Shown in pieces: positions 39,567 through 63,598 of a stretch of DNA of 64,000 bases. The stretch spans positions 62,001 to 126,000 of the forward strand of contig JAHLWZ010000470.1 of NCBI GenBank assembly GCA_020536535.1, given 5' to 3'. The stretch comes from Pelomyxa schiedti. Taxonomy: Eukaryota; Protista; Evosea. Every line of letters begins with the position of its first letter. The first letter of the stretch is position 1. A model generated the notes under the pieces. The model ran no database searches, was not told the DNA's origin, and saw only the letters and a program-made list of their open reading frames with translations. The translations under genes were made by a program, and so were the position numbers.

Positions 39567-39593
39567 TGTGCGGAAGGAGAATTGGAGAAAAAA

Positions 39594-40877
39594 ATGTCGG
39601 GGTTGGCAGCTGTTGTGCCGCCAGGCAGTAGTTCCCTGCTCAGCCAGATCCACGAAGCATGCGGCAGGATCCCCAGTTCGATAGAGAATGACCCGGAGGA
39701 CGAGTCGGCCTTCCGGTTGCTGGACTCCCTTTTGTCTCGCTACGATGGTGCGGTCGACTGGGCGATGCTGTCATCGGCGTGCACGGCCGGAAACCTGCGG
39801 GCGGTTACTGCGCTCCTAGATCGCGTCGCGCGCCTCGACTGCATCGGCAACACCACGTGGGCCGACCCAGATCCCGCCGCAATCGCGTCGGCGAACGCGC
39901 GCGAACCCGGCGCCGCAGATCCGGACGCGCCGGCGCTGGTGCCGCACCCGCTGTGGATGGCCGCGGGCGGCGGGCACGTCGCGTGCGTGTCGGCGATGCT
40001 CGACGCCGACGACAAGCGCGGCAGCCGGATCCCGTGGCGCTGCCTGGCTCAGGCTCTCGACATCGCGCTGCGGCGAGACAGGGGAGATGTTGCGGATGTG
40101 CTGCTGAGCAGGAGGAGCCCGGCGGCGGCGACCGCGACCGCGACCGCGACCGCGACGGCGGCGGCGAGCGCGTACAAGGAAGTGGTGGCGTCCGCGCTCC
40201 CGGCTATGTTTACGTTCCGGAACCACGCTGCGCTGGCGGTGCTGCTGGCGAAAAACATGGTGGCGCTGGACGTGGTCGCTACCGCAGAGAGCGAAGCCGC
40301 GGACAACCCGCTGGAGGCGCTGGCGGCGCTCGGCATCGACGTAGCTAGCGCCAAGAGGCCTGGCGCAAAGGACACTACCTCCGGCCAGAGTATGGAAGAG
40401 GACGTGGTTCTTCTGGCATGCAAGAGTGACGATAGGGACGGGGTCATGATGCTACTGGAAGCAGGGGCGCCGGTACCTCCTGGCTCACTGAGGGAAACCA
40501 AGCTAGTGGCGATGATGGGTTGGGGCTGCCTTTACCAAGCATTACAGAAACAAAAGGACAAAATCGCAGAAACCACTACACCTACACCTACGCAATTAAA
40601 TACCAACACAACTACACTACAAAATACCCCCCAGTCCGAAGCGGCGGCTGCACAAGTGCCCTCGCAACCAGTTCCAATCAAGGATATGACAGTAACCGAA
40701 CTTGGGCAATACATTACCCAGAAGTACCCCAAGCTCGCGGACTGTGTCCCGCTGTTTCAACAGGAGAAAATTGACGGCTCAGCATTCTTGATGCTAACTC
40801 AAACAGACCTCAAGGAACTCGGTTTACCAATGGGTCACAGGAAGAACCTATTGGCTGTGATTGCATCGGCACATTGA
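39594..40877 (+). CDS. Ankyrin-repeat protein with C-terminal SAM domain (single exon)
   Basis: Ankyrin-like 'SACTAGNLRAVTALL', 'PLWMAAGGGHVACVSAML', 'ALDIALRRDRGDVADVLL', 'LLEAGA'; SAM 'MTVTELGQYI...FQQEKIDGSAFLMLTQTDLKELGLPMGHRKNLL'. Confidence 0.88.
   Translation: MSGLAAVVPPGSSSLLSQIHEACGRIPSSIENDPEDESAFRLLDSLLSRYDGAVDWAMLSSACTAGNLRAVTALLDRVARLDCIGNTTWADPDPAAIASANAREPGAADPDAPALVPHPLWMAAGGGHVACVSAMLDADDKRGSRIPWRCLAQALDIALRRDRGDVADVLLSRRSPAAATATATATATAAASAYKEVVASALPAMFTFRNHAALAVLLAKNMVALDVVATAESEAADNPLEALAALGIDVASAKRPGAKDTTSGQSMEEDVVLLACKSDDRDGVMMLLEAGAPVPPGSLRETKLVAMMGWGCLYQALQKQKDKIAETTTPTPTQLNTNTTTLQNTPQSEAAAAQVPSQPVPIKDMTVTELGQYITQKYPKLADCVPLFQQEKIDGSAFLMLTQTDLKELGLPMGHRKNLLAVIASAH
40128..40157 (+). 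repeat. (GCGACC)n coding hexamer repeat encoding Ala-Thr repeats
   Basis: gcgaccgcgaccgcgaccgcgaccgcgacg within the ankyrin-SAM ORF. Confidence 0.9.
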
Positions 40878-45461: not shown

Positions 45462-46754
45462 TTAGTCCAAAAGAGAGCAGTGTTGGTTGAGAGTGAAGGC
45501 CCCTGTTGGTAGGAACGAGGATACATCTAATGTGACCACAACCTTCCCTGATGTTGCTTCCATCACCACCACATATTGCTCTCTCACCGCAAACAGTAAC
45601 CCACAAATTCCACCAACAAACTGGTCGAAAATTGCATCCGTCTGTATGCACCTCAGTGGTTGGTCAGTGTTGTTGCAGTCCCACAGCTGGTATGACGTCG
45701 GCTTGGCTGCAGCGGTGCAGAACAAGCAGCCGCTGATTTGTGACAGGTATAGGCACTGTTCTGTGACCTTCTTCACCTCGCCGGTTGTGGAATCGACCTG
45801 GTAGACAATGCGGTCACATGAATAGTACCCAATCGGCTTCATAATGAAAACAACAGCTCCGTCCGTCTTCTCCCTCCTCATAATCAGTGTAAAGTCGCAC
45901 GTGAACGAGAACCCACAACTGTGATATTGCACCCAACTAGTTGTCGTGGACATGGTCATGAATAGCCGGCCGGTTTTGTAAGTCTTCGGCACATCAATCA
46001 AAGTGAAATCCACGTTCCAGTTATCCTTGATAAGCACAACGGCCTCGTCAGGAACCATCTTGTTGAAGAAAACACCGGATACGGTGATCCCGATTTCAGA
46101 TGTCAACTTCACAGAAACAGGTGGCTCTGCGGTTTCGTCACTTTCCGCCCCGGGTTCTACTTTCGAGATCACGAGGCTGCACCCCGGCTCCCCTGTATTG
46201 TAGTAGTAGTAGCTCGGCGCCTCGCCGGAGGCTATGCACCACTTATGGGTCGCTGCCGGCGCGGCTCCATACAAGCACCACAATTTGCTTTGGACGGTGA
46301 CTGCGCCGCGATCTTCAGTCATCCTCCTGAGGGCGAAGGGGTCCCTGAAGGAGCCAATGCTGCCCCCCTTGAGCAGGTACGTCGCGGGCGTGACCCAGTG
46401 CCGCAGGCCGGTCCTGCTGCACTCGATGCACTCGGACGTGAGCCCCAGCGTGGACCGAGACACCCCGAGGGACACGGACCACGACTCGTGCGCCCGGTAG
46501 CGGGGCTCCAGGACCGCCGTGAGCCGCGCCTCCGCCGCGGAGCGGGACGCCACGTGGTCGCGCCAGAGCAGCTGCGCCAGGGTGGTGGAGGAGCAGAACT
46601 GGCGGGCGGGGCTGCCGGCGCCGCAGCGGGGGTGGGAGGACGCCAGCAGGGCCAGGAGCTGGTGGCGGGCGGTCGTCGCGGGCGGGGCTACGAGCTGCAC
46701 GTGGGGCGCTGCCGTGACCCCAAACTCCATCGGCGGGCTCAAGGGGCGCGCCAT
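45462..46754 (-). CDS. Intronless member of a lineage-expanded family (helical N-terminal motif plus beta-rich C-terminus), function unknown
   Basis: 430-aa ORF; N-terminal 'ARHQLLALLASSHPRCG.SPA' and C-terminal 'LWDCNNTDQPLRCI...GLLF...VVMEATSGKVVV' recalled from the large Pelomyxa hypothetical family. Confidence 0.75.
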   Translation of the reverse strand: MARPLSPPMEFGVTAAPHVQLVAPPATTARHQLLALLASSHPRCGAGSPARQFCSSTTLAQLLWRDHVASRSAAEARLTAVLEPRYRAHESWSVSLGVSRSTLGLTSECIECSRTGLRHWVTPATYLLKGGSIGSFRDPFALRRMTEDRGAVTVQSKLWCLYGAAPAATHKWCIASGEAPSYYYYNTGEPGCSLVISKVEPGAESDETAEPPVSVKLTSEIGITVSGVFFNKMVPDEAVVLIKDNWNVDFTLIDVPKTYKTGRLFMTMSTTTSWVQYHSCGFSFTCDFTLIMRREKTDGAVVFIMKPIGYYSCDRIVYQVDSTTGEVKKVTEQCLYLSQISGCLFCTAAAKPTSYQLWDCNNTDQPLRCIQTDAIFDQFVGGICGLLFAVREQYVVVMEATSGKVVVTLDVSSFLPTGAFTLNQHCSLLD

Positions 46755-46949
46755 TTCACCAGTCTAACGGCTTTTTCCGTAATGGCGATCAGGGTAGAAC
46801 ACCAAAATTCCACCGAGAACCAGAACCCGCTCCAGGTGCTTGTGAAGAGCCTCTTCCAACACGCCAGAACCCAGACACTCTGCCGCCCCGAAAACTCAGA
46901 TTTCAAAGAACCATTGAGATTCTCAAAGCCATCGGACGCGTCGAGGAAG

Positions 46950-49900
46950 ATGCGGACTATGACGGGGCAGCAACAACAACAGGGGACGACACCAACGACT
47001 CCGCCAGGGACACGTGTTCGGACGCTTTTGGATGAGGGCGGGGGGGGAGGAGGAGGGGGAGGGGGAGGGAGCGGTGTGATTGGCAAGTACCCTAGGCCAC
47101 GAGGGGGCGGGGGGGGCACGAGGGGGGGCACCGCCCTCGTGCGGCGTCTGGATCCCCCTCACCAGTCCATGGTGTGCAAGGGCCCCTTGAGGAGGTAAAA
47201 CCCCCTGCCTGCCTGCCTGCCTGCCCTGCATGTTGTTGCATTGATTAGTTGCCATTTATTAATAGCGGCTCTCCCTTGCGTAATTTTTTTTTTTTTTTTC
47301 CCCCTCAACACCTGAGTGCTTGAAAACAAGGTGTGACCCTTCTACAGCCATTACTGAGGAGTACCAAGTTTATAGGTTATCTGTGAATACTCCGAAATAA
47401 TAAAATACTATTTAAAAAAGAACGAGAACTCATTTGTATACAGTGAGATTGGTCCTCATAGCAATATTGTATTTTGTCATGGGTTGGCTGAAGTCGATGG
47501 TGTAGTGCACTTGATACTTGCCTACCACAGTATTCTATTGTCTACTTTCTTGGAAGAGCAAAAGGACACTCTTTCTTGGAGGTTCTTCCAAAAAAAAAAA
47601 AAAAAGGGAAATAAATGATCAATGACTTTCCATTACAGCCAGCGCCTGCAGCTGGCCAATGGAATGGCTTCTGCCTTAGATTATGTGCACTCAAAAGGAT
47701 TTTTGCACTGTGATGTCAAATCAAATAATTTCATGGTTTGTGGCATCCAACCACTAATGAATACTAACAGTTCTCGCAAAGTTGGAACAGCAAGGGGACC
47801 AATTGATTCCCAAACTTTTTGATCTGGGTTCAGCCAGAAGGATTGGGTTGATAATTTACCAATAACTGCACAAAAAAAAAACTCATCACCACTCAGGGTG
47901 GTTGTTAAAGACACCACTGTAGCAGAGACCTTACGCTGGACAGCTCCAGAAGTGATTGTTGAGGGTACCTATACAACAAAGTGTGATGTGTACTCCTATG
48001 GCATAACTTTATGGGAGCTCATAGAAGGAGAAACCCCATTCCCTGTGGAACAAGATGATAGGTACAATTTCTTATGAGAGAAATGTATTTTTCATAGCTC
48101 TTCAAGTGATATCCGTGAATTGATTATTGCAGGGGAGAGGCCTGTTATTCCCTCATATTGTCCCATACCATTTGCACGAATAATCAAGTTATGTTGGTCA
48201 CCCACTCCAGGGAATCGCCCAGAATTCAGAGAAATAAAAAATGTTCTTTCACAAATTGGTACTCAGTACTCCCTTCTCTGTTTATGTCCAATGCCTTGTA
48301 GAAATGACTGGTTTTGATTCTCTAGCAAACCATTCAACCACTGACCTCTTGGAAATGCTCAATTCTGTGGAGGATGAAAAATTATGCTTTATTCTTGGGT
48401 TGCTGGAAAAACTATGCAGGAAGGCCCCCCTTGATGCCATGAATATGATGCAACAAATTGGCTCAAAACTGGAAATTTTCCTTTCCTCTGGGAAGTCAGA
48501 ATTACGGACAAGGTAACAAGAAACCAAATTTTGATTGACAATTTATTTCTGCCAAGCACAATCGCTTTTCTTGGGTTGCTTGTAACTCAGTGTGCACCTA
48601 ATATTACAATTCGCCCAATTATTGAGGCCATTATTTTCCATGAGACAGACCCTGTACTTTTGAAGTTGTCACTATCAGTTTACTCTTTTAGTATGTTGCG
48701 AAGAGGAGTGGGTAAAAATTACTTACAATCCTTAGTTGCTGAACCCTGTGCAGTATCACTAGAAAGAGTGAAGGCCCATATTACTTCAGAGTATTTGTGT
48801 GTTAAAATGAGTGCCCTGGACGCATATGCCACATTGGCAAAGAGACTTAAATGTACTTCCGTATCTGTATTTTAGCATTCTCATTCTTGACTTTCCTTGA
48901 GGAAGGTGCAGAGATGGCAGATCTTTGTGGAAACCATTTACCTTTCTTGTCTTCAGTGCTGATCAACACAAAAGTTCCACGTGATGTAAGCCTGCATATA
49001 TTTGAGGTACCAGGCCAGCTTCACTTGCTTTCTGAAGACAACTGTTTGAAATGTAGGTTGTAGATCAATTGATAAGCATTGATAGTGGCTGGGATCCTAT
49101 TTGGTTTTCCGAGTTTACGGTATGCCTCGAATTTGAAATTGCGTACTCACTTCTGTTAGGAACATCAACAAGCGTACTTCTTCTTGATGGTATGTGCGCA
49201 TACACGGCGATCTGATTTTGTGGTATATTTTTGCAGCAAGCTGTGCTATGCGATCACAAAATGTAATTTTCATTGACAAGTCACTACCTTACTCCTTACT
49301 CCTTACTCCTTACTCTTCTCCACTGCCAGCATACTCCTTCAGAGACGAATTTATACAAGCAAATAATCTTATAAACTGGGGCAAAATTTCATCACTGTTT
49401 GATTTTACACTTTGGGATAATTTAAATACAACTTCCTTCAATATGGCACTTGAAGGAGTATGTGTATTTTTTTTTCAACTCTCAGAAAGGTATCAAGCCA
49501 TTTACAGCCCTTTTTTTTTTAATCTTGTCCTCTGCTTCAGTCCACAGACGTTTTTGTTACCCCTGAACACAAAGGAGTCACTTGAGCTAGTGAAGTGGCT
49601 AAATCGTCTTTCTACGCCATACGCATCAACTGCCCTACTTAATTTATTGCTCCTTGTGCAATCTTATATCTCGAAGATTGGTGTGCACTAGTGAAGGGAA
49701 ATGAAACGTTAACCATGCAACCAAGGAGATCAGACACTATTGCAAGCATTTCGGCCTGGAATTCTGTCATGTGTTCTCGATATCGCCTGCAACACTACTG
49801 ACACACAGGTGGCATACGTTTGTTTGTCATTTGTTATCAATTTGCTAGAACGAAGTACATCTCTAATCTTAAAAATCCAATAAATATACCCCTTAGTGCA

Positions 49901-52035
49901 CAAATTGAACCCAAAGTACATCAAGGACTATTATGCACACTCCATAACAGCTACTATTGTATCTGAGATATGTGAAGTAATCTTAAGGAACACAAGTGGC
50001 TGCTTTGGCCTTCAAGTCTCTACTCCTAGCCACTTTTTCTTTTCCCTTACAGCCTGTATCCAGTCTAAGTCTAGCGTTACCCCACCAACCCTTCACCAGC
50101 GCAGGCTTTCCCATTGCACACTTGCTGAAATCGGTCTTCAGTTTTTTATTACAATTACAAGTATCTCTAATCACCTGTAACCACTATTTTTACTCTTTAT
50201 AGAATGTGGTTCCCTCGAAGTGGTAGAAAATGCTACCACATGGAGAGTAGTTGTATTTATGCTGCAGCCTCATTCAGTGATTCCCCTTTGTCTTCAAAAA
50301 CGTGCCTTTGATTTGCTGCTTCATACTCCCAGTTCTAGCACCCTTTTTTCCAAGGTTCCTTTAGACCTGATTCGTTCACATGCCACACGCGATAGTCCTT
50401 TGGCGCCAAGAGCCTTTATGCTTTTCACTAGGAATGCTTCCCATTGTATTTACCCAACTACTATCAAAGATCCTCATTTTTTCAGGTGCTGGCTTTCTCC
50501 AACAACATCGACTTGACAAAGTAATTGTTGAAGTTCTTCAGAGCCCAGTTGAACCCAGTGTAGGTGGCCAACCTTCTGATACAGTGTTATTCCACTCTGT
50601 AGTCAATTTCCTCTTCACATGTGTTAAACAGTGTGTGTTCTTGTTTTCATTACTGTACTGATCTCCATCAGTCCTAATTGCCTTTCTGTTGATTTTTTGG
50701 AAATTCTTATTCAGCACTGGAAAAAAGTATCCACCAGCCAACCTCTATTTGCTTACTGAAATCATAGTTATCACTTACCCCTGAAGTCAACCTGCTGCAG
50801 ATTTGTGGTAGTATGGATATCACAAACCTCGAAGCAGAGACAATTTTTCATACATCCTGGAAATATGGCGCTATAAGTATATGGATATTGCATTTCCCCA
50901 TTTAAATAGTTTCAGCTCCTGCAAATGACTCTAGTTTACCTGAGCTGCCCCCAAGTCCAAAAATTCCCAGTTGGGCACCAAGTACTCCACAGCTCACTCC
51001 TTGGAACACACAGGTGCGCCTTCATCATAAGTCCTTTCATCTGACAAACCTCAGGGACTCACTGATGTTGACGTTCACCTTTATCAGCCAACTACCAAAT
51101 ATGAAAGCACTCTTCAAAGGCGTATTATCACCCTATGGTAAAGCAATAATAATAAAAAACCCACCAAAGAACTCAAGTCATCTATAGTTTATTGTCACAT
51201 GACAATCTTGTACCAGTGCTCGCCCTTTCCTCACAATCCCCACTTGGTTTTATTGTTCCTCACTGGACTCTGGACCTGCGCTCCTTTGTCAGAAGTAGTG
51301 TTCCTTGAACCTTTTCCAGGGTTAATTGTGTTAAGTGCCACACATAACAACACAGGCGCTGCTTCAAGGTTTCTGTGGAATATCGTCGGCTCTAGTCTAC
51401 CTACACTCTTTACATGTTCCTTCCATGGGAGTCGATCCTGGTGAGAACCCTAACTTGCCATAAACAACCTATTTACTTCTTGAAAAGATAGAATTAAGGT
51501 ATTGCAATATCAGATTGAAACTCTCATGTTTCAAAGGTGTGCCTTAGTAACGACAAAGTCTTAATGAAGTTGTTGCTCAAAGGGATCCCATCCCATGAAG
51601 GTTTGTTCGAGTGCACCCTTCCCTTAATTGATTCACAAAGATATCCATTCTACTTACGGAACCTCGAAGGATCCCGTTGGCCAAATCCCTTTGAGTGATA
51701 TCTATTGCATTGGCGCGCTCTTGCACAGTATAATTCAGCGGAAAGTTGTGTGGCCTCCAGAAGTGCCGTACGATGCACTCCATCCACCTTTTTTTTTCCC
51801 TTCCAACCAACACACAGACTCACTTTACCTGGGCCTACGAACCGCAATGAGCGGGCATCACCTCCACCAAACCACTTCCCGGAATACCTTCTGCTTATAT
51901 CCCAGTGCTGCTCACAGGCACACTTTCCGCATTTCTCTTCTGTCACCCGTTTTACACATACCACAGAACCCAGGCGAGGAACCGCAGTTGGCTACTGTTC
52001 ACCAACAACTACTACTACTCAACAAAAGAGAGTGA
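46950..52035 (+). CDS. TKL-type protein kinase + helical (ARM/HEAT-like) region + C-terminal pseudokinase, multi-exon
   Basis: Kinase 1: 'HSNIVFCHG', 'MASALDYVHSKGFLHCDVKSNN', 'DLG', 'RWTAPE', 'DVYSYGITLWEL', 'CWSPTPGNRPEF'. Kinase 2 (about 51000-52035): 'HDNLVPV', 'ISSALVYLHSLHV', 'SDIYCIGALLHSII', 'LISQCCSQNPGEEP', with no HRD/DFG. Confidence 0.8.
49287..49314 (+). repeat. (CCTTACT)x4 heptamer repeat, probably intronic
   Basis: ccttactccttactccttactccttact. Confidence 0.85.
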
Positions 52036-52118
52036 AACCCACTCTTAGTACTAGGCAACAACGCAAATGAGGGCCCGGCTCATACACAAAAGAGGGTTTT
52101 TGAACCCCAAAAACTGAG

Positions 52119-52134
52119 GTTACAAATTTGTAAC
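52119..52134. other. Perfect 16-bp palindrome GTTACAAATTTGTAAC in the kinase/ART intergenic region
   Basis: Read directly; a second TTGTAACC arm follows at 52135-52142. Confidence 0.85.
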
Positions 52135-52299: not shown

Positions 52300-53140
52300 C
52301 TACGAATCTGCAGTGAACACAAATGCATCTCTTGTTCTGCAGAGGAAGCGAACTTTCTGCCACGGTGGAATCAGAAACTCAGCCTCCTCAGGGTGCGTGC
52401 TAACATCTCCAAGGTACTTTTTAGGCACGTTCTCGAACTTGAGCAGCACCGGGCCAAATCCCATGGCAACATCCCTCCTGGCTGAAGTAGCCGCGAATGA
52501 CTTCATTGAGAACGGCCGGTTCCGCAGGTCAGTTACTATGCTCTCCAATCTCGCCTGGTCCACGTCTATTCCCCTCCATGTGTCAGTGTCCCTGTTTGGC
52601 GTGTCACGACAAGAATGAGCCAGGGCCACGGCGATCTTGTCGACCTCCTGGGCCACGAGTGCGCCGTTTGGGCTGTCGGATAGCATGCAATCTCGTATCT
52701 TGTGGTACACAGAGTCGGTCGACCACAGCCACAGAGCTATTGCCTTGGTGCGCGCGTCGAGGTTCTTGATCGGGGATATGACAGGGAGAGGGATCTGACA
52801 CATGGAGAGGCCGCCCTGGACAACAACGTCCCAGAAATCGGGCAGCTTACGCAACAGGCAGCGAGGCAAATCGGTGCTGGGGCTGGTCGTGAATTGAAAA
52901 TCACTGATGCGCGAGGTAAATCTTGCATTTCTTTTGGTATAACTCATCCTCCCCACGGTAGATCCGACACTGAACGCTTGGAGACTTGACCTGAGCCTTG
53001 TTAATGTGGAAAAATAAAAAGAACAATAATCCGTCACTTATGTTGTAGCCGAGATTGACATGTTCCAATTTTAGGACAACAATGACATGTTGGCATGTTT
53101 GCAGGCAACATAAAGCATGGATCAAGGAAACGCAGAATGT
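52300..53140 (-). CDS. Mono-ADP-ribosyltransferase, ARTC (R-S-E, VIP2/C3-like) fold; 5' end uncertain
   Basis: 'AIALWLWSTDSVYHKIRDCM' helix, 'TWRGI' (catalytic R), 'SFAATSARRDVA.GF' (STS-like), 'DVSTHPEEAEFLIPP' (E-x-E). Intron near 52998-53037. Confidence 0.8.
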
Positions 53141-53199
53141 GTGCATTATGCTTTCTGGGATCGTGATGGTACCCTAGCCCTGAGGTAGGTCCTGTTTTC

Positions 53200-56100
53200 A
53201 GTTCATCAGTTTCCGATCACATACAACCGAAAACGAAGCCACACAGGGCTGCACGGGGGCGGCCCGGGAGGGCCATTTGCACCAATCCCAACAGTGCATA
53301 CTTCCGAGCAGAAAGTTCGCTTGTGGCGTTGCTAAAGAGGGCTCTGCAAGGGACCTGGGACCCCATGGACACACTGGCGGCAACATTCTCCCAGAGGCCA
53401 GAGCTTTTCGCGCGCTTGCGCAATTGGGCAGAGTGGTTGGTGGATAATAGATCCGAGGCTGAGTGGGAGGCAGTTGCAGTGGAGTGGGCCAAGGCTGCTG
53501 GAAGATCACAACAAACCACAGCTGAGGCACAGGTCCAGCGAGACCTCTGGGCCATTTTTAACCAGAGGTCCAAGCACTCGTACACGCGGCAACTGTTTCT
53601 CCACAGTCTCAGTGAGCTGCAAAGTTTAAAGCCAAGGCTTGCCAGAGTTATCTTGGCGCTCTCGTACATTATGAAGGTTGTTCAAAGCACTTTTTTTTGA
53701 GGGTATTTTGTCCCTCATTTCTTCTATAGTATGAAGCACCAGAAATTCGGGTAGATATAGACACAAATACCACACTCACACCATCCACCACTGCCACAAC
53801 ATCAACTACAGCAACATCCACCCCCGCAGCTGTACTCATAGCCCCAATTTCATCTTCTCTACTGCCTTTGGACCTTAGTGCCACAGCTGATTCTAGCCTT
53901 GGCTCAGCTGAGCCTGAACTGGGCACAACACTCTTCCATAAGACATGGGGTACAACCGAGACCACATGTGACTCATATTGGGCTCACAAGCTAAAACTGG
54001 AAGATATAAACAATCTTTCTGCCAAGAATTGGCCACAGCGGGATAGACTGGCCATGGAAAAATTACTCCAAAACAGCAATGTAACCTATGAAATATATGG
54101 GGAGGATAATGGCCAGGCATGTGAGCGGCTTGGATGGAGCCTTGGTTGGCCTGTTATCACATGTACTCTCTTGGAACCAAATGATGGTACCATGGGCTGG
54201 AAAATTTCACATGAAATTAACATAAAGATACACCTAGTGACATTATCGGAACTCAAATCCAAATATCTTGATGGAAAACCATACCTATTTTGTCTACACT
54301 GTTCCCAGGTTTGGAACTTGAGCATGATTCATAAATAGTGATTTTTTAACAAAAAAAAAAGAAAGACTGTGACAAACTGCCAGACATATGTCAGTAAGTT
54401 TACTTATATTTTCTGTGCACACTGCTCATAGATTTGGCATAGAATTTTTAAGCAAATCAACTCTAACCTCCGCATTGTCTTGATTGGGTTGGAGCCTATT
54501 GCACTAGAAAAAGCTGGTTTGCCCTATGGGTTTTGCTATTCACTGGTATGTTATCTTCCCCCAGTTCCTATTTTAATAAGGAGTGAAGGATATGTCACTT
54601 ACGTACCAATCAGTTCTAGCCACTTTAGCTTACCTCTTTGGTGAAGGATCCTTATTCTTTGGGACTCACCACCAAGTCCAAGAGATAGAGAAGGTGTTAC
54701 CTACTTCTTAGCTTTATAGCCAATAACTTCCCGATTTTCAGCTTGCAACAAAACTTGTTGGAAGCAGAGAACTGCTCAAAAAGTTTCTTGAAATGTACAG
54801 AGTTCTAATGTTAAAATACCAGTGGAGCTATTTTTATATTGTTGACAGAGTGTACAATGATTACACAAAAAAGACATTCAAATCCATTAGTGACTGCCTC
54901 AGGAAAGCATATGACAACATGTGCAACCCGTATACTAAGTGATCACCCTGCCAGTCTTAAATGTGAAGCAGGCATCAGAGCACAATGAGGATAGAGAAAA
55001 AATACTTGCAGAAATGCCTGGATATTGCATGGGGTGCTTCAAGGTGCATGCAGAAGTCCTCGGAATCAGCAATTGTATCTGTTCTTATCCCAAGGAACAC
55101 TGAAGGTTTCTTTTTCTCTTTTCCATATAACCATCAGCAGATTACTATCAAGTCATAAAATTGGGCAGCTTGTTGAACATAGCTGGAATATTGAGAGTTA
55201 CACCCGTTCCTGATGGTGCTCTAATCACTCCCCCTTCACCTTGGGTGATGGACAGGCTCACTTCAAGGCAACATGACCTACTCTGGTTTACAGGCTCATT
55301 AGAAAGTCTCTCTCAGTTCCGGCCCACTGTTGGTGGATCAGTAATGGAGCGCGCTGTATTTGAGGAAGTGGCATCAGGGCCCAGTCCTTTGATTACAACC
55401 ATATGTGAGAACACAGATTACTGGATTTTCCCTTGTAAATTGTCTCCATTGCCTGCATAAACCCAGTTTAAATAGTGAGGAACAAGTCAAAAGCACAGAA
55501 GTTCAAAAATGTGGCTGATGTTGACTGCAGAATTCTGATGGAAAGGGGCACTGTGGCCATTGCTGGAGATGAAAGCACTGGCCTTACATTTAAGATTGAC
55601 CTTCGCTTTGTACTTATGAAGCTCAGTTTGTGTAGTTTCTTTTATTTTGTCTCCTCTCTGAAATTGACTGCTCTGTAGAAGGTCACACAGACATCAACCC
55701 CTTCATACCATGTATGTCTATCAACAAACATCACCACTCCCAAATACATGCAGGCAATATCCAGATTTCCGTGGAACGAGACGGGAATACAAAAAAGTGC
55801 AAGGACTTCTTTATTCTGTCAACAGAAAGAAATGAGGCTTGTATGCTATCACCAAGATACTAGATTTTCTCATCCAAAATAGCATTCATAGTGTTTTTTT
55901 CCCTTTACCCTTTTACTTTTGATGTGGACCTCCAGTGTTTCCTTCATGGAATTACAGACCAGAACACACCAAATTGTGTATGTTGCCCAACCCATAATTG
56001 GGTCCCTCTCCATTTATTGGCTTTCTCTCTTCAGCTTGCTGGCAGATCCTTCCAGATGCAAATCTTTCACCACTTTGTGATTGTGTGTGGCTCACAGGCC

Positions 56101-56703
56101 CTTGCTCTAATGAAGCACATTCCAGATCTATGGGAGTCCCCCGCCAGTGATGAAGTGGTCTGGCCTGATCCATGTAGATGTATGAATTAAGTAATTACCA
56201 CTAGATTAACAACTTATTAGCTGGTGATGACCAGGTCATAAACTTGAAGTTCACAGAACTGAGAGACTTCCTTAAAGGCAAGGATCAGATTGAGTTTGCT
56301 TCCCTCAAGGAACTCATACAAGATGACCCAAAGTTGCAAAAAAAACTCATCAATGGTCACCCATCTGTTGAGGGAGCTCAGCTCTTCCTGAAGGAGGCAA
56401 AGGCTTTGAGGCTGGAACATCTTGTGTGTACTTGTGTCATTATATTTTTTGACCACCTTACAGAAGAATAATGTACGCAAATATTTGCCACCCCAGAACT
56501 ACTACCTACAGGGGGTGCTGGACCTGCTTCCAGATGAAGGCACAGTCCATGAGCAGCTCTCATCACTAACAAATAGTGTCTCAGCTGATTGTGTGGTAAG
56601 GGCATTGGGTCACAAGTTTGTGCCATATTTCATGGAGCAATACACTACATGTGATGAAAGACAAACCAACCCACCAGCTTCTAAGAAATTGAGAAAGCAA
56701 TAA
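53200..56703 (+). CDS. Paralog A: putative Crinkler/RHS-like effector (degenerate NTPase + wHTH + PD-(D/E)xK-like nuclease), multi-exon
   Basis: Colinear homology with 57961-61577 over the whole length; 'NLRIVLIG', 'AGILRVTP...LITPPSPWV', 'GGSVMERAVF', 'KIDLRF', 'GNIQIS'; C-terminal NLS-like PASKKLRK. Family call is inference. Confidence 0.6.
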
Positions 56704-57462
56704 CAATAAAAGCAAACCAGTTTTTTAAATGGTACATTCCCAAAGAGGCTCTGTTGATGTTGACAGCTTCCAGGGGTACCAGTAGTGACTAATTCGCCAT
56801 AGAACCAGTGGCTGGGTTCAAAATGTTGTTTAATGTGATGGAGTGCCATGTTATTAGAAGTTTACATTTTGTTTGTAGGTAGCTTGGGAAGATTTTTGTA
56901 TTTTGTGGTGTGTGGTGATACCGGGATGTGGGAAAGGCCTGCAGAGTACCTGAAGAGTTTCTCTCCCTTATTAACTACAACGCAGGCTGCCCACCACCAG
57001 AATCAAAGTTCCGAACCTAATCCCAAAGGCGGCAGCTGAAACAGGTGTTGTGAAATAACCAAAGGTGAAATCGACGCGGTTGTAACTCAGACCCAGCAAG
57101 CCCTACGTCTGCAGGGGTAAACTTGTTAGTGAAGCCAAACGACACCGGAGAGCCAACATATTGTTAACGTACATTTGGCACTGAAAGGTCTTTATAAGCA
57201 TGGAGACACCATGTATCCTTGCAACAGTTATTCGGGTCTCTTTATATGTTACCACCGCTGTTCTGACCTTGCTTTCTGTTGATATATAAGTCAGAAAATG
57301 TTTGTTCAGCAGGGAGGCGTTCCTCCAATCTTATAACTCACACACTGTAAGAGAATGTAGAAAACAAAAGCATTGATGTTGGGGCCGGTCTGGTTCCCCT
57401 GCGCGAGGGAGCATTCCGTGCCTGGTGCCACTTAAGATCTAATAGTTCAGGTACCTCACGAA

Positions 57463-57804
57463 AAAACAACCGACTGTCTGCAGTGCGGCTCTGTGCGCTG
57501 CCGCTTCATTTCTAATCCTCAACTTATTACACTTTTCTCACTTATTGCCCAGTTAATCTTGCATGGCCTAAAATGTCTCCACTNNNNNNNNNNNNNNNNN
57601 NNNNNNNNNNNNNNNNNNNNNNNNNNNNNNNNNNNNNNNNNNNNNNNNNNNNNNNNNNNNNNNNNNNNNNNNNNNNNNNNNNNAAAACAACCGACTGTCT
57701 GCAGTGCGGCTCTGTGCGCTGCCGCTTCATTTCTAATCCTCAACTTATTACACTTTTCTCACTTATTGCCCAGTTAATCTTGCATGGCCTAAAATGTCTC
57801 CACT
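57463..57804. repeat. 121-nt exact direct repeat flanking a 100-N gap (57463-57583 = 57684-57804)
   Basis: Direct comparison of the sequence. Confidence 0.95.
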
Positions 57805-57960
57805 GGAGCTCTGAACTTGCCGGACTCAGTTTCTGTAATCCTCCTATTGACACCCCCTTTTGGGAGATGCCACGCTCCATGGTATTCGTAACTCAAAATT
57901 GCAAACCCACATCTTTTCTTAAAAAAAAAACCACAATGAAAAGTGAAGCTATGTATACTT

Positions 57961-60900
57961 CTATGTACCATTTGGTGGGTGGGGTCTCTTTCTTGTGGTA
58001 TCAACTCTATTCTTTTTGAGAGGAACAGTAGCAGGATTTGCATTGGCAGCATCACTTGCGGCTGGTTCCTGGTCACAGTACTGCTCCCAATAGCCTGGTG
58101 TAAACTTGTGGGTGAGCTCTTTGAGGCGGAATTCAACGGCATATGGGGAGGTGAGGTTACTCAGGCCTTGTCGCACTTCATCCTTGTCAGGCAGCAGATC
58201 CAGAGCTCCTTGTAATAGGTGGTTGCCAGGGGGGATAAAATTTTTTTTAATTGTTTGCTTCTGTGGTAGTGGTTAATACCAAAAGGGAAAAAGAAAGCTA
58301 GGTTGGTGCACATACGAGAAGCTGAAGGCTATGGGTTCCGGCTTCCATGCAGAGAAACTGAGCACCCTCGGCTGATACCTCGGCATTGAGGAAATGCTTA
58401 AACAACTTCTCGTTGTTCATGATGAGCTCCTGGTGTGAGTTAAGCATAAACCGTTCCTTGCCGTGCAGCAAATCTTGGAGTTTGGCAAACTTTTCATCAT
58501 CCTCTTCTGTGAGGACTAAGTGTTAGTTGGGTTGCACAACATTTCTTTAGGTATCACATACCGGTGGGTTGCTGCCAGGTTCCAACATTCCCACTAGGGC
58601 ATGCCCACAAGTCTGGGATCTGTTTCATGAGGCTGATGGCTTCTGCACCACTAACTATGAAGAATTCTCGAAATACAGCTTCATCAAAGTCTTTACCAAC
58701 AAGCTGGCAGGTGGGAGTCAAAATGTGCAAGTCTATTGCGCAAAAACTTACACAGTTGGGTTTACATTGTTGAATGCCTCGAAGGAAATTTCGTAAATCC
58801 TCTGTTAACTCAAAGGGATATAAGCAAAGGAAGACGATCTTTGCTGGGTTTTTTGTGGATGTAAGAAGACATTAAAAGATTTTTTTTGAGAGCATACATG
58901 CGAAATTTAGAAGTGTCATCAGTATAAAGAATTCTAGACATTTTAGAGCATTACCTTCCCGTTCTGCTGAGGCTTGGACATTGCCTGTTTTATTTTTGTT
59001 GTCAGTTGCTGTCTCAGCGCATAACTGGAAGGTAGGGTAATAGACATACATGTGATGTTGGAGGGGAGGGAGCCATCTACACCTACATAAATATTAGGAG
59101 CAGGTACCAATAAATTCTGGTCCCCAAACCAATTCTCTCAAGACTGAAACATAGATCAATTTTGCAGGTCTTTCCAGTACTCTCGTCGCCAGCAACGCCA
59201 ACGATTCCTTGCCCTCTCAGTATATCACATTTCGCTTTAGCGGCATCATTGAATTTAAGGTATGACGCTCTGTTCTGCACTGGTTGTTGTCAGTGTAAAA
59301 TAAGAGTAATTGAGAAAGTTACATGGGCTCAGCCGATATTGGGATTGTCCATTAATGAAGGACAAGAACGCTGTGGGACCCGTTGCTACTTCATGGAATA
59401 GACCACGCTCCAACACCACCCCTCCAACACTGGGGCGTAGCTGACAGATTTCCTTAAGAGAAGGTGTAAACCACCGAAGGGTATGGTGTCTGGTGCTAAG
59501 CACATCCATAGCCCATGCTGAAGGAGGGGTGACCAGTGCCCCATTTTTAACTGGTGTTACCCTTAGCACACCAGCAGTGTGGAGTGTACCTCCAAGCTGC
59601 ATTATTTTGCTGTAATCTACTGGAAGTTAAAGGGATGTAAAGTTACAGAATGGTGGTACCTTCTGTATTACGGGGAATTAATATGGACTTAATGGTGAAG
59701 TTGGGGGACCTTTCTAGATAGCGAGGAGCACTCCATACAATATCCAGACACCGAGTAAAGTCTTTCTTTATTTGAGGCATCTTAGTGTAGTAGCTATGTT
59801 ACAGTTAGGGACATAAGGTGATAACTTGTTAACATACGAATTAAACAACCAGTCGTATGAACGCCTTAAACAATCACTAATGGATTTGAACTTCATTGCT
59901 TCATGATCACTGCAAACTCTGTGAAACTGGGTTAGGAGGTAAGAGTGCTTCTTGGGTACATGCATCTCAAGAAACTTCTTTAAAAGTTCTTTCTGCTCAG
60001 CGAGCTTTGGTGCCAGCTGTAAAAAGTAGGAGAAAAAAATTGTAGAATAACAGTAAACTAAACCTTTCCAATTTCTTGGTTCTGATGACAGCCCCCAAAA
60101 AATAAGGATGTTTCTCCAAATATATAAAACAAAGTATCCAGAACTGTTTGACTATCAAGAGACATGTCCTAAGGTATGGGGTCCATATTACAAGGTAAAA
60201 ATGGTGCAACAAGAGAACCAGAGTACAACTAGCTGGCATTCCTATCTCATTTAGGGTATTAGGTGCCACTCCACTCAAGACGACGCGGAGGTTGGGGTTG
60301 ACCTCTTTTAAACACCTTTCAAAGAAACGTGAGAAAAAAAAAACATAAAAAGGAATCTTACAGGTATATATCTTGGAGCCTATCACATTCCTTTGAAAGG
60401 TGAGGAGGAAAACCGGTTTGAGACTAAAACCTGAGAACACTTCAAATGATACAGACATGGTGCCCCTTCGAGGCTCTTGACTTCTAATAAGGCAGCTCGA
60501 ATGTGTATCCAATTAGATTGAGGTGTCATCAGTCATTAGAGTTACCTTGATCAAATGTTTTAAGACGTTTGGTAATGATAGCCCAGTTGAGAGTGGCTGC
60601 CAGCCGTGTCAGCACTTTAGAGGTGTCCTCTTTGATAACTTCAAAGGGGCCGGTATTGGCTTCTAGTTTCTCCTTGGCCAACCTGTCAGGTGAAGGCCAG
60701 TTTGCTGACGATAAGTTCTGGATGGTTTCAAGCTTCAACTTGTGCGCATAATAAGAGTCGGATGTACAATCGGACTCATTCCACGTGATATCGAAGAGGT
60801 TGGAGTGGAGATTAGGTTGTGGAACTGGGTATGCAACTGGGGTATCAATTGGAGAGATTATAGGCACTGGAGAAGAAGATATAGAGGATGTTGTGGTGGA

Positions 60901-61577
60901 GGGTGCCTCAATATCTTCAACTTGTGGTTTCTCGTACTAAGAAGAAGTGAGGGAAGTTGTAGTGTGTGGGAATACAAGTTGTTGTTGTTGTAAGATATAC
61001 GGTCTAGGTGACCAAAAAAAGAAGGTTTGACCTTAAGAATATAAGCAAGGGCCAAAATTATCCTAGCGAGTCGCGGTTTTGCTTCACGCAGTACTGAAAT
61101 ACTCTCCAAAAAGATGTTTTTCCCAAATGCTGCGTTGGCCTTCTGCTCGAAGATAGCATACAAAGTCTTTTCGATCGGCGGCTGTTCCGTGGCCGATGCT
61201 GGATCCGAGTTTTTGGCATCAACAGCGAGCCGTTGCGCCACCGCCAACCATTTTTCTTCGTCCGCTTCCTGTAATACTGTAGTTGCTAGTTCCTCCAACT
61301 TGGAGAACAGCCTGGGGTCGCTTTTAAAAGTAGCTGCAAGGCTACCGTCAAACACATTGTGGGTTCCATTCTTTAGAAATGTGACGGTGGCACTGTTTGC
61401 TTGGAAGAAGTTGCTGTCGGGGTTTTTCCTTGCCTTAGATTTTTTTGGTTTTTTAGTGTTGTGTGGTGACGACGTCGATGTTGATGTAGGTGACGGTGAC
61501 AGTGACAGTGACGCGGTCGCCTCGGGTGAGTCAGGATCGTCTTGTTTTGCGTGTGGTTTGTGACTGAGACGCGACAT
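57961..61577 (-). CDS. Paralog B: putative Crinkler/RHS-like effector (degenerate NTPase + wHTH + PD-(D/E)xK-like nuclease), multi-exon
   Basis: ATG at 61577; 'NLRVVLSG', 'AGVLRVTP...LVTPPSAWA', 'GGVVLERGLF', 'KIDLCF', 'GNVQAS'; basic NLS-like motifs at both ends (KKPKKSKARK; PLKKNR..RKRP). Confidence 0.62.
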
Positions 61578-61742
61578 TGTATTAGAATGTCGCGTTGCAG
61601 TGGGTGTTAGTGGTGAGCACCACTGATTTGTTATTTGGTGTGGGGCTTTTAATTTGTAGCCGAGATTTGGATGTCCCTGTTTAAGTGTTTCTCATAAACT
61701 GACATTTCGGCGTTTAAGGTTTGTTACATAAGTTTCAATGGT

Positions 61743-63598
61743 TTATGATAGGGATTAAACCTGTCAGGGTTTTTCACGGTCAGCATTGGACTCAGCACGG
61801 AGGTCTAACGGTGAAGAGCGTTTCATAATAAATTGAACAAGGAGCATAATACCTCAAATTATTNNNNNNNNNNNNNNNNNNNNNNNNNNNNNNNNNNNNN
61901 NNNNNNNNNNNNNNNNNNNNNNNNNNNNNNNNNNNNNNNNNNNNNNNNNNNNNNNNNNNNNNNTGGAATTTGTGTTGTTGGGAGTGCACCCGGCAAAGTT
62001 ATATTGTTTGGGGAGCACGCTGTAGTGTACGGCTACCACGCCGTGGCTGCTGCCATCGAGTACCATATTCCTTACACTTACTTTGTGTTTGTATGTAGCA
62101 ACGAACTCGGTTTGGTGACCAGCTTTTTTTTCCCTTTTTCTGCAGGTTAAAGGTTGAAACAAAGCTCAAGTTGAGTACTCTCGGGGACGGTAATATGCAT
62201 AGCACAATGGTGTTGAGTGTCAGTGGAGGAGAAGGAAGGAACTTCGACATACATGAATTAGTGCAGAGGTGTCACTCGAGGCTGGAACCAATGGAGGAGT
62301 GGAATGGGATGGCTGTGGGATTTGAGGGTTTGGCCAAATTGGTGTCTACTCTTGTTACGTTTTGTGAGGCGGAGAGAATATGTAAGGCTGAAGCTGTGAT
62401 GATAGCGTATTTTGCATCTCTGTTTGGGACATTGTGAGTGGCACACTTCATCCTCCGAATCTCATCTTTTTTATCAGAGGTAAATCAGCTGAGTTGTCAA
62501 CATTGGCAACTTTGCCTATGGGAGCTGGGTTGGGCTCCAGTGCGGCATTTGCTGTTAGTTTGTCCGCGACATTGCTTCATGCCAGTGGCACACGTGCATG
62601 CGATTTTTCTTGTGCGGAATGCAATGTTGAAACAGGTCAATCACATAACTATCACTTCCCTCTAAAATTCATCAGGAAGTGTATGTGAATGCCAAACAAA
62701 TCTTATAAATAACTGGGCCTATATTTCAGAGCGTGTTCATCATAGTAACCCATCTGGAATTGACAACTTCGTAAGTTCACATGGTAATACCACCAACCTT
62801 TCCTTCATTGTTTGATTTCCTCAAAGGAGGACTGACCTTGTTTTCGCGGGGAGGAGACAAAAAGCAATCCAGGCATAACTTTACCCAATGCCACTCTCCC
62901 TCATATGTATTTTGTAAAGTCTTTTGGTGCAGAAACAGCGAAATTTTAACTCTCGTAGAACCGAGGACATGGGATTGTTCATTATTGACACATGTGTCAC
63001 TCGAAAGACTGGCCAAGTTGTTGACCATGTCGCATGCAGACGGAAAGCACAAACGGAAGTTGTTGATGCGGCCCTGAAAGAAATAGATAGAATCTCCATA
63101 GAGTCCTTTTCTCTTCTCGGTACCGTTGTTACCACCAACTGCTCTAACACTCTACAAGAGAAACGGGATGCATCAACCTTGCTCCCCCTCATCGACAGAA
63201 ATCAGGACCTCCTCGATAGGGTTCTGGATGTAGGCCATGAATCACTCCGCAGAGCCCATCAAATATGTTTATCAGCAGGTTTGCATATGAAACTAACTGG
63301 TGCTGGATGGGGAGGCTGTGCCTATGCTCTCGTTCTTCCAGGTTCTACTCCACATTCTGAAATTACAAACCTCTCAANNNNNNNNNNNNNNNNNNNNNNN
63401 NNNNNNNNNNNNNNNNNNNNNNNNNNNNNNNNNNNNNNNNNNNNNNNNNNNNNNNNNNNNNNNNNNNNNNNNNNNNNTTATGATAGGGATTAAACCTGTC
63501 AGGGTTTTTCACGGTCAGCATTGGACTCAGCACGGAGGTCTAACGGTGAAGAGCGTTTCATAATAAATTGAACAAGGAGCATAATACCTCAAATTATT
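61743..63598. repeat. 121-nt exact direct repeat at gap edges (61743-61863 = 63478-63598)
   Basis: Direct comparison of the sequence; gaps at 61864-61963 and 63378-63477. Confidence 0.95.
61964..63377 (+). CDS. MVK: Mevalonate kinase (GHMP family), partial between assembly gaps
   Basis: 'SAPGKVILFGEHAVVYG', 'LPMGAGLGSSAA', 'ERVHHSNPSGIDNFVS', 'KLTGAGWGGCA'. Confidence 0.93.

What the first reader, a model, noticed from the sequence alone, without database searches (positions are those of the whole stretch)
52300..61577. Candidate eukaryotic effector/defence locus: ADP-ribosyltransferase plus two convergent, diverged NTPase-nuclease-like paralogs
Seen: two intron-containing genes (53.2-56.7 kb +, 58.0-61.6 kb -) face tail to tail and are colinear homologs end to end. 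Examples: KPRLARVILALSYIMK / KPRLARIILALAYILK; DSYWAHKLKLEDINNLS / DSYYAHKLKLETIQNLS; DMSLTYQSVLATLAYLFGE / DMSLDSQTVLDTLFYIFGE; FKSISDCLR in both; LIPRNTE in both; AGDESTG..KIDL.F; GN(I/V)Q(I/A)S.ER.GN..KC..FF; LQG.LDLLPD. Several intron positions appear shared although the DNA is strongly diverged, so both look maintained by selection. Inference: the order helical N-terminus, degenerate P-loop/sensor strand, wHTH-like L..G.L...PP.P, then G..E / D / Q-x-S matches the NTPase + restriction-endonuclease-fold architecture of Crinkler-RHS effectors, and both carry NLS-like tails. An R-S-E ART gene abuts paralog A head to head. Together this could be an uncharacterised toxin/immunity or paired sensor-executor module in a phagotrophic protist.
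Basis: partly seen in the sequence, partly recalled or inferred. Interest (0 to 1): 0.8.

Follow-up and report, generated by a model that had tools for sequence, protein, structure and literature searches.

The report
Amoeba pseudo-ATPase nuclease pair beside ADP-ribosyltransferase
In the free-living amoeba Pelomyxa schiedti, two old, transcribed gene copies face each other and encode proteins with a predicted AAA+ ATPase fold lacking its ATP-binding motif and a likely DNA-cutting domain, as in Crinkler/RHS-type effectors; the likely ADP-ribosylating enzyme next door is not shown to work with them.

Summary
Genes A (53117-56703, +, 926 aa; split by NCBI into Pelo_5908/5909) and B (61577-57961, -, 929 aa, Pelo_5910) of Pelomyxa schiedti are spliced in RNA. 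They are 46% identical and share all 16 of B's intron positions, with near-saturated synonymous sites. A third paralog (Pelo_15708) lies on another contig; no relative outside this family was found. An AlphaFold model of B matches AAA+/STAND ATPases (Foldseek best hit ORC1, E 2.5e-5), but Walker A is lost in all three paralogs. The nuclease domain rests on invariant E570, D640 and Q663 plus strand order; its fold was low-confidence, so untested. The head-to-head gene looks like an R-S-E mono-ADP-ribosyltransferase (R125, A-T-S, E-A-E; ESM score 0.96), with no RNA seen. Best reading: a lineage-specific Crinkler/RHS-like family of intracellular, likely nuclear, restrained nucleases. The three-gene toxin/immunity or sensor-executor module is unproven. 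Its only support is adjacency and a 37-bp repeat found just upstream of both ART/A and B.

The parts
52300..52947 (-). Stand-alone ADP-ribosyltransferase-like gene (215 aa single ORF; NCBI Pelo_5907 models a different 5' end, 190 aa). R125, A153-T-S155, E188-A-E190; no hydrophobic N-terminus
   Evidence: ESM Atlas 0.96 to ART/ADPrib_exo_Tox clusters; NCBIfam XopAI E 0.0032; Pfam ART E 0.05-0.08, below cut-off; no RNA cover in 3 runs
53038..53074 (+). Copy 1 of a 37-bp repeat (exact 14-bp core 53043-53056) in the 169-bp head-to-head gap between ART and A; candidate promoter element
53117..56703 (+). Gene A, 18 exons, 926 aa (NCBI Pelo_5908 + Pelo_5909, annotated as two genes)
   Evidence: RNA joints
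53293..53676 (+). A: predicted alpha-helical N-terminal header, conserved in all three paralogs
54033..54925 (+). A: AAA+-like core and helical lid with degenerate Walker A/B (by alignment to B 263-455)
   Evidence: fold tested on B only
55045..56125 (+). A: predicted wHTH followed by REase-like region (E581, D651, Q674-I-S676)
56176..56703 (+). A: C-terminal helical domain and basic tail (KKLRK)
57463..57804 (.). N gap flanked by an identical 121-nt duplication in the A-B intergenic region; likely assembly artefact
   Evidence: DNA contig joint
57961..61577 (-). Gene B, 17 exons, 929 aa (NCBI Pelo_5910)
   Evidence: RNA joints
59842..60696 (-). B residues 263-455: AAA+ alpha/beta core plus lid; Walker A and Walker B degenerate
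   Evidence: AF2; Foldseek; VIA; motifs
58613..59720 (-). B residues 481-750: predicted wHTH, then REase-like region with E570, D640, Q663-A-S665
   Evidence: (pLDDT under 50 over 533-765)
58083..58562 (-). B residues 767-890: confidently modelled all-helical domain of unknown kind
   Evidence: block pLDDT 65-82; not spanned by the fold-search rows
61649..61685 (+). Copy 2 of the 37-bp repeat, about 75 bp upstream of B's ATG (76% identical to copy 1)

Best explanation
A and B are transcribed, anciently duplicated members of a small Pelomyxa family (at least three genes) whose proteins carry a predicted AAA+ fold without a Walker A motif and likely act inside the amoeba's own nucleus as restrained DNA nucleases of the Crinkler/RHS (NTPase-HTH-REase) type. 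Shown: gene structure, splicing, paralogy, purifying selection, loss of the Walker A consensus, basic tails. Predicted by a model: the AAA+ core at B 263-455. Inferred: the basic tails import the protein into the nucleus; the header, pseudo-ATPase and wHTH serve as a scaffold that binds DNA or a partner and holds the nuclease off; the E570/D640/Q663 site cuts DNA when released, most likely against invading or ingested DNA, or as a self-kill response. The ART gene is likely a separate cytosolic mono-ADP-ribosyltransferase that may share A's promoter, but it is not shown to be a partner.
Confidence: 0.45

Rival explanations
1. Same architecture, but domesticated: the proteins are chromatin or transcription factors with no toxic or defensive cutting, as trypanosome RHS proteins are.
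For: T. brucei RHS2/4/6 are nuclear or perinuclear, needed for growth, and act in Pol II transcription and mRNA export (PMC6393297 passages). Low copy number (3 found), dead Walker A, intron-rich genes, long purifying selection and spliced RNA in an unchallenged sample (23, 83, 105, 10).
Against: Acidic and polar residues at the putative active site are invariant across 23-46% identical paralogs. No homolog was found outside this family in 1.84 billion representatives, which suits a fast-evolving conflict gene.
Confidence: 0.22
2. ART, A and B form one co-regulated conflict module: A and B hetero-oligomerise as sensor and executor, or as toxin and antidote, and the ART modifies one of them or acts as a co-effector.
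For: ART lies 169 bp head to head with A. A 37-bp repeat with an exact 14-bp core sits in that gap and about 75 bp upstream of B, in the same orientation relative to ART and B. It is the only exact copy pair in the window; 0 of 392 random 213-nt windows gave a shared run of 12 or more. A CRN-ART fusion family exists in animals (PMC12957317).
Against: A and B are equally degenerate in the ATPase and equally intact at the putative nuclease site, so there is no sensor/executor asymmetry. Pelo_15708 is on a separate 26.8-kb contig. The genome region is compact and B is likewise head to head with an unrelated GHMP (mevalonate-like) kinase gene. The repeat was found after the fact and is inverted relative to A versus B.
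Confidence: 0.15
3. A and B are delivered effectors aimed at prey, competitors or the amoeba's prokaryotic endosymbionts, as canonical CRNs are aimed at hosts.
For: CR headers are thought to govern delivery and may be helical, with no signal peptide (PMC5289972). P. schiedti hosts prokaryotic endosymbionts (PMC10579272, search listing and abstract start).
Against: No LxLFLAK or HVLV motif and no Ubl/Crinkler Pfam match. Few copies and no sign of rapid expansion. NLS-like tails would be useless against bacteria.
Confidence: 0.1
4. The C-terminal half is not a nuclease but another fold, for example related to the phage RdRP-like clusters that the ESM Atlas returned.
For: ESM Atlas feature hits of 0.92-0.94 for Pelo_5909 to clusters with PF05183 in 19-36% of members. 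The region's model is low-confidence.
Against: Recognition score 1461 is below the tool's 2300 threshold. No DxDGD motif in any paralog. No Pfam RdRP match.
Confidence: 0.08

Closest known systems
CR (Crinkler-RHS-type) proteins with NTPase + HTH + REase C-termini (Zhang et al. 2016, read only through PMC5289972 section 11 and passages of PMC11342252, PMC6131194 and PMC11064341)
   Same: Helical N-terminal header, P-loop NTPase of AAA+ fold, predicted HTH, putative REase, basic tail, no signal peptide; free-living host.
   Different: No sequence match to CR/RHS Pfam families; Walker A lost in all copies; extra ~125-aa helical domain after the nuclease; only 3 copies found; site reads Q-x-S/T rather than ExK; REase fold not confirmed.
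Oomycete and fungal CRN effectors (Ubl header, LxLFLAK, HVLVxxP)
   Same: Likely the same type of C-terminal module.
   Different: No Ubl header, LxLFLAK or HVLV motif; not a pathogen.
Trypanosome RHS proteins (PMC6393297, passages)
   Same: Lineage-specific, NTPase-bearing, likely nuclear proteins of the CR class.
   Different: RHS is a family of over 100 (pseudo)genes with an ATP/GTP-binding domain; here 3 intron-rich genes without Walker A and no RHSP Pfam match.
AACRN/AACRNL, ADP-ribosyltransferase-associated Crinkler-like proteins (PMC12957317, abstract and first two parts of the text)
   Same: Links a Crinkler-type locus with a mono-ART in free-living eukaryotes.
   Different: AACRN(L) is one protein (Ubl header + diphtheria-toxin-like H-Y-Y ART) beside transposon TIRs; here the ART is a separate R-S-E-type gene next to NTPase-REase-like genes, and no TIRs were found.
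ORC1/Cdc6, NLR and Avs (STAND) ATPases
   Same: AAA+ core plus helical lid.
   Different: No Walker A; no repeat sensor domain; 9-15% identity in the structural alignments.
R-S-E clade mono-ARTs (PF01129, PF03496; XopAI; Lart1, PMC7949102 passages)
   Same: R, x-T-S and E-x-E motifs in order; ESM features 0.96.
   Different: First Ser of S-x-S is Ala; no close homolog besides itself; no signal peptide; expression not seen.

Membership tests
CR (Crinkler-RHS-type) NTPase-HTH-REase proteins | P-loop NTPase domain (AAA+ fold) in the C-terminal module | tested here: met
CR (Crinkler-RHS-type) NTPase-HTH-REase proteins | HTH between NTPase and nuclease | tested here: inconclusive
   Helix plus beta-hairpin at 490-530, block pLDDT 62-76 (59); not isolated in any fold search.
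CR (Crinkler-RHS-type) NTPase-HTH-REase proteins | REase-fold nuclease with catalytic residues | tested here: inconclusive
   Invariant E570, D640, Q663 and compatible strand order (83, 59), but pLDDT under 50 and no fold-search row covers the region.
CR (Crinkler-RHS-type) NTPase-HTH-REase proteins | N-terminal header (Ubl or one of several helical types) | tested here: inconclusive
   Conserved helical region 55-182, 23 positions identical in all three paralogs; low pLDDT; no header Pfam match.
CR (Crinkler-RHS-type) NTPase-HTH-REase proteins | Profile match to a defined CR-NTPase/CR-REase subfamily of Zhang et al. 2016 | not testable with these tools
   Those profiles and the paper are not held; Pfam scans gave no Crinkler/RHSP match.
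Canonical CRN effectors | Ubl header with LxLFLAK and HVLVxxP | tested here: not met
   Motifs absent in all three paralogs; header predicted all-helical.
Active AAA+/STAND ATPase | Walker A GxxxxGK[ST] and acidic Walker B | tested here: not met
   No Walker A in the AAA+ region of A, B or Pelo_15708; Walker B Asp only in Pelo_15708 (83).
R-S-E mono-ADP-ribosyltransferases | Catalytic Arg and E-x-E | tested here: met
   R125, E188-A-E190 (105); definition from PMC7949102 passages.
R-S-E mono-ADP-ribosyltransferases | S-x-S motif | tested here: inconclusive
   Reads A-T-S; second Ser kept, first replaced.
R-S-E mono-ADP-ribosyltransferases | ART fold or family profile | tested here: inconclusive
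   ESM 0.96 with recognition 2262, just under 2300; XopAI E 0.0032 and Pfam ART E 0.05-0.08, all below curated cut-offs; AF2 model unusable, pLDDT 37.
AACRN/AACRNL | Ubl header fused to an H-Y-Y ART | tested here: not met
   The ART is a separate ORF with R-S-E-type motifs; definition.
Paired sensor-executor or toxin-immunity module | Arrangement recurs at other loci | not testable with these tools
   No whole genome is held; the flanks of Pelo_15708 could not be read.

The most novel reading that the evidence does not exclude
A eukaryotic three-gene, co-regulated conflict cassette. One upstream element drives an R-S-E ADP-ribosyltransferase and two convergent pseudo-ATPase/nuclease paralogs. 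The paralogs hetero-oligomerise like paired NLRs, and the ART arms or disarms them, giving a symbiont-laden amoeba an operon-like cell-autonomous defence.
Probability: 0.12. Interest if true: 0.8.

Novelty: new variant of a known kind. Interest (0 to 1): 0.42.

Why it matters
Most CR-type proteins in free-living protists have no known job. This is a small, stable, expressed family in an anaerobic amoeba full of prokaryotic symbionts, invisible to sequence profiles and mis-annotated (A is split in two). It offers a tractable test of whether such proteins are nuclear defence nucleases or domesticated chromatin factors, and of what a dead AAA+ module does. If the shared upstream element and the ART prove functional, it would be a rare operon-like defence cassette in a eukaryote.

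Tried and rejected
A-B complex prediction (B 226-765 with Pelo_5908 170-452): no answer, score 0.00, alignments not used, partner fold uncertain; no evidence either way. Single-sequence AF2 of the ART: pLDDT 37, and its Foldseek search had 0 matches at E<=0.001; discarded. ART versus PDB sequences: 3 weak coat-protein hits, rejected. Family profile versus PDB sequences: 0 hits at E<=10. No related loci in metagenome, viral or prokaryote contigs for the family (66, 92, 93) or for the ART; these pattern scans are weak for intron-rich genes. ART had no RNA cover in 3 of 3 RNA runs (one sample, contigs only), which does not show silence. No REase fold appeared in four searches with the full model, but the AAA+ domain filled the lists. 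RdRP lead rejected. B's GDESTGKT (629-636) resembles Walker A but is not kept in A or Pelo_15708 and lies in a predicted hairpin; rejected as a second P-loop. Weak hits to ZorC (E 0.003), Rz-like spanin (0.005) and VirB4 (0.03) were treated as noise. No TIRs around the locus among the 25 longest of 102 inverted pairs shown. No ART-to-paralog homology. Three look-ups of earlier findings returned nothing. Literature: 0 papers for 'Pelomyxa schiedti'+'ADP-ribosyltransferase' and for 'Pelomyxa'+'Crinkler'; the gene ids do not occur in the 2 supplement files held for PMC8887013. Zhang et al. 2016 is not held, so these proteins cannot be placed in its subfamilies.

Full report
Source and genes. An exon of gene A matched Pelo_5909 of Pelomyxa schiedti at 100%. 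Pelo_5908, Pelo_5910 and Pelo_5907 on the same 126-kb contig are the first half of A, gene B and the ART. No whole genome is held. Translated comparison of A against the window found B as the only strong match. Spliced models give A = 53117-56703 (+), 17 introns, 926 aa, and B = 61577-57961 (-), 16 introns, 929 aa. B is identical to Pelo_5910; one GC-AG intron was located from that record, and GC-AG introns are 1.59% in this genome (PMC8887013 passage). Identity is 404/885. Fifteen of B's 16 introns share column and phase with A, and the other is one column off. dN is 0.50 and dS undefined; fourfold sites are 62/175 identical against 25.5% expected. The pair is an old inverted duplication kept by selection.

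Expression. Three RNA runs (one sample, contigs only) and one run of unrecorded kind hold the locus. Spliced joints confirm 10 of A's 17 introns, loose ends support 2, two were uncovered, and three (54930-54971, 55106-55140, 55626-55678) appeared only unspliced. Retaining any of these three would stop A early (after aa 470, 528 or 676); retention of 55106-55140 matches where NCBI ends Pelo_5908. B's equivalent of that intron is spliced. Five of B's 16 introns were among the joints displayed, with 11 further joints not displayed. Full-length A mRNA is therefore inferred, not seen. The ART had no cover.

Family. phmmer of A's C-terminal half against 1.84 billion representatives found 3 proteins: itself, B, and a third paralog whose cluster holds Pelo_15708 (988 aa, 26.8-kb contig). 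A profile search returned only B and Pelo_5908 among the 7995 candidates scored. Pelo_15708 is 23-29% identical to A and B over the whole length, header included. Pfam, PHROGs, PADLOC, NCBIfam and PDB sequences gave nothing credible.

ART. The 215-aa ORF carries R125, A-T-S 153-155 and E-A-E 188-190, matching the R / SxS / ExE definition (PMC7949102 passage) except for the first Ser. ESM features scored 0.96 to ART clusters, recognition 2262; XopAI E 0.0032; Pfam ART below cut-off. It has no close homolog besides itself among 569 candidates and no hydrophobic N-terminus. It is likely a mono-ART; activity and expression are unshown.

Is it a module? For: a 169-bp head-to-head gap, and a 37-bp repeat, 76% identical with an exact 14-bp core, in that gap and about 75 bp upstream of B. 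These are the only exact copies in 64 kb, and 0 of 392 random windows reach a 12-bp match. The repeat has the same orientation relative to ART and B but the opposite relative to A; it was found after the fact, and about 20 other chance 14-mer pairs occur in the window. Against: A and B show no division into active and inactive partner; the third paralog is elsewhere; B is equally head to head with a GHMP kinase gene. Recurrence could not be tested.

Comparison. CR proteins combine varied headers, including helical ones, with NTPase+HTH+REase and occur in free-living eukaryotes (PMC5289972, section 11 and passages, 46, 50). Trypanosome RHS members act in transcription (PMC6393297 passages). AACRNL fuses a Ubl header to an H-Y-Y ART (PMC12957317 abstract and first two parts, 94-96), unlike this separate R-S-E gene. 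A and B work like CR NTPase-REase proteins, fail the canonical CRN header test, and cannot be assigned to a CR subfamily because Zhang et al. 2016 is not held. Searches pairing Pelomyxa with Crinkler or ADP-ribosyltransferase found 0 papers.

Verdict. A real, expressed, lineage-specific CR-like family with a dead AAA+ module and an extra C-terminal helical domain: a new variant of a known kind. Intracellular nuclease 0.45, domesticated nuclear factor 0.22, three-gene module 0.15, delivered effector 0.10, other fold 0.08. Interest 0.42.

Noticed in passing
window 53038-53074 and 61649-61685: 37-bp direct repeat with an exact 14-bp core upstream of ART/A and of B; the same strand in both places, so inverted relative to A versus B. 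Could be a bidirectional promoter element or a relic of the duplication.
   Followed up: partly
window 54930-54971, 55106-55140, 55626-55678: Three introns of gene A seen only unspliced in RNA contigs, each of which would truncate the protein; possible regulated or leaky splicing, or pre-mRNA.
   Followed up: partly
window 56174-56220 versus 56180-56220: Alternative in-frame donor in gene A, 6 nt apart, seen in different RNA runs.
   Followed up: no
window ~47170-51500 (+): Protein-kinase-domain gene (Pfam Pkinase/PK_Tyr_Ser-Thr) followed by a long intron-rich region with no Pfam match in three sampled ORFs.
   Followed up: partly
window 51638-52134: A spliced transcript next to the ART's 3' end; its sampled minus-strand ORF has no Pfam match.
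   Followed up: no
window 61964-63400 (+), with duplicates at 61743-61863/63478-63598 and 61964/63963: GHMP (mevalonate-like) kinase gene amid N gaps with exact duplicated stretches; likely assembly artefacts.
   Followed up: no
window 58083-58562 (-), B residues 767-890: The best-modelled part of the protein is an all-helical domain with no assigned family; it was not searched alone.
   Followed up: no
window 39567-40877 (+) and 45462-46763 (-): An ankyrin + SAM domain ORF, and a 433-aa single ORF with no Pfam match.
   Followed up: no
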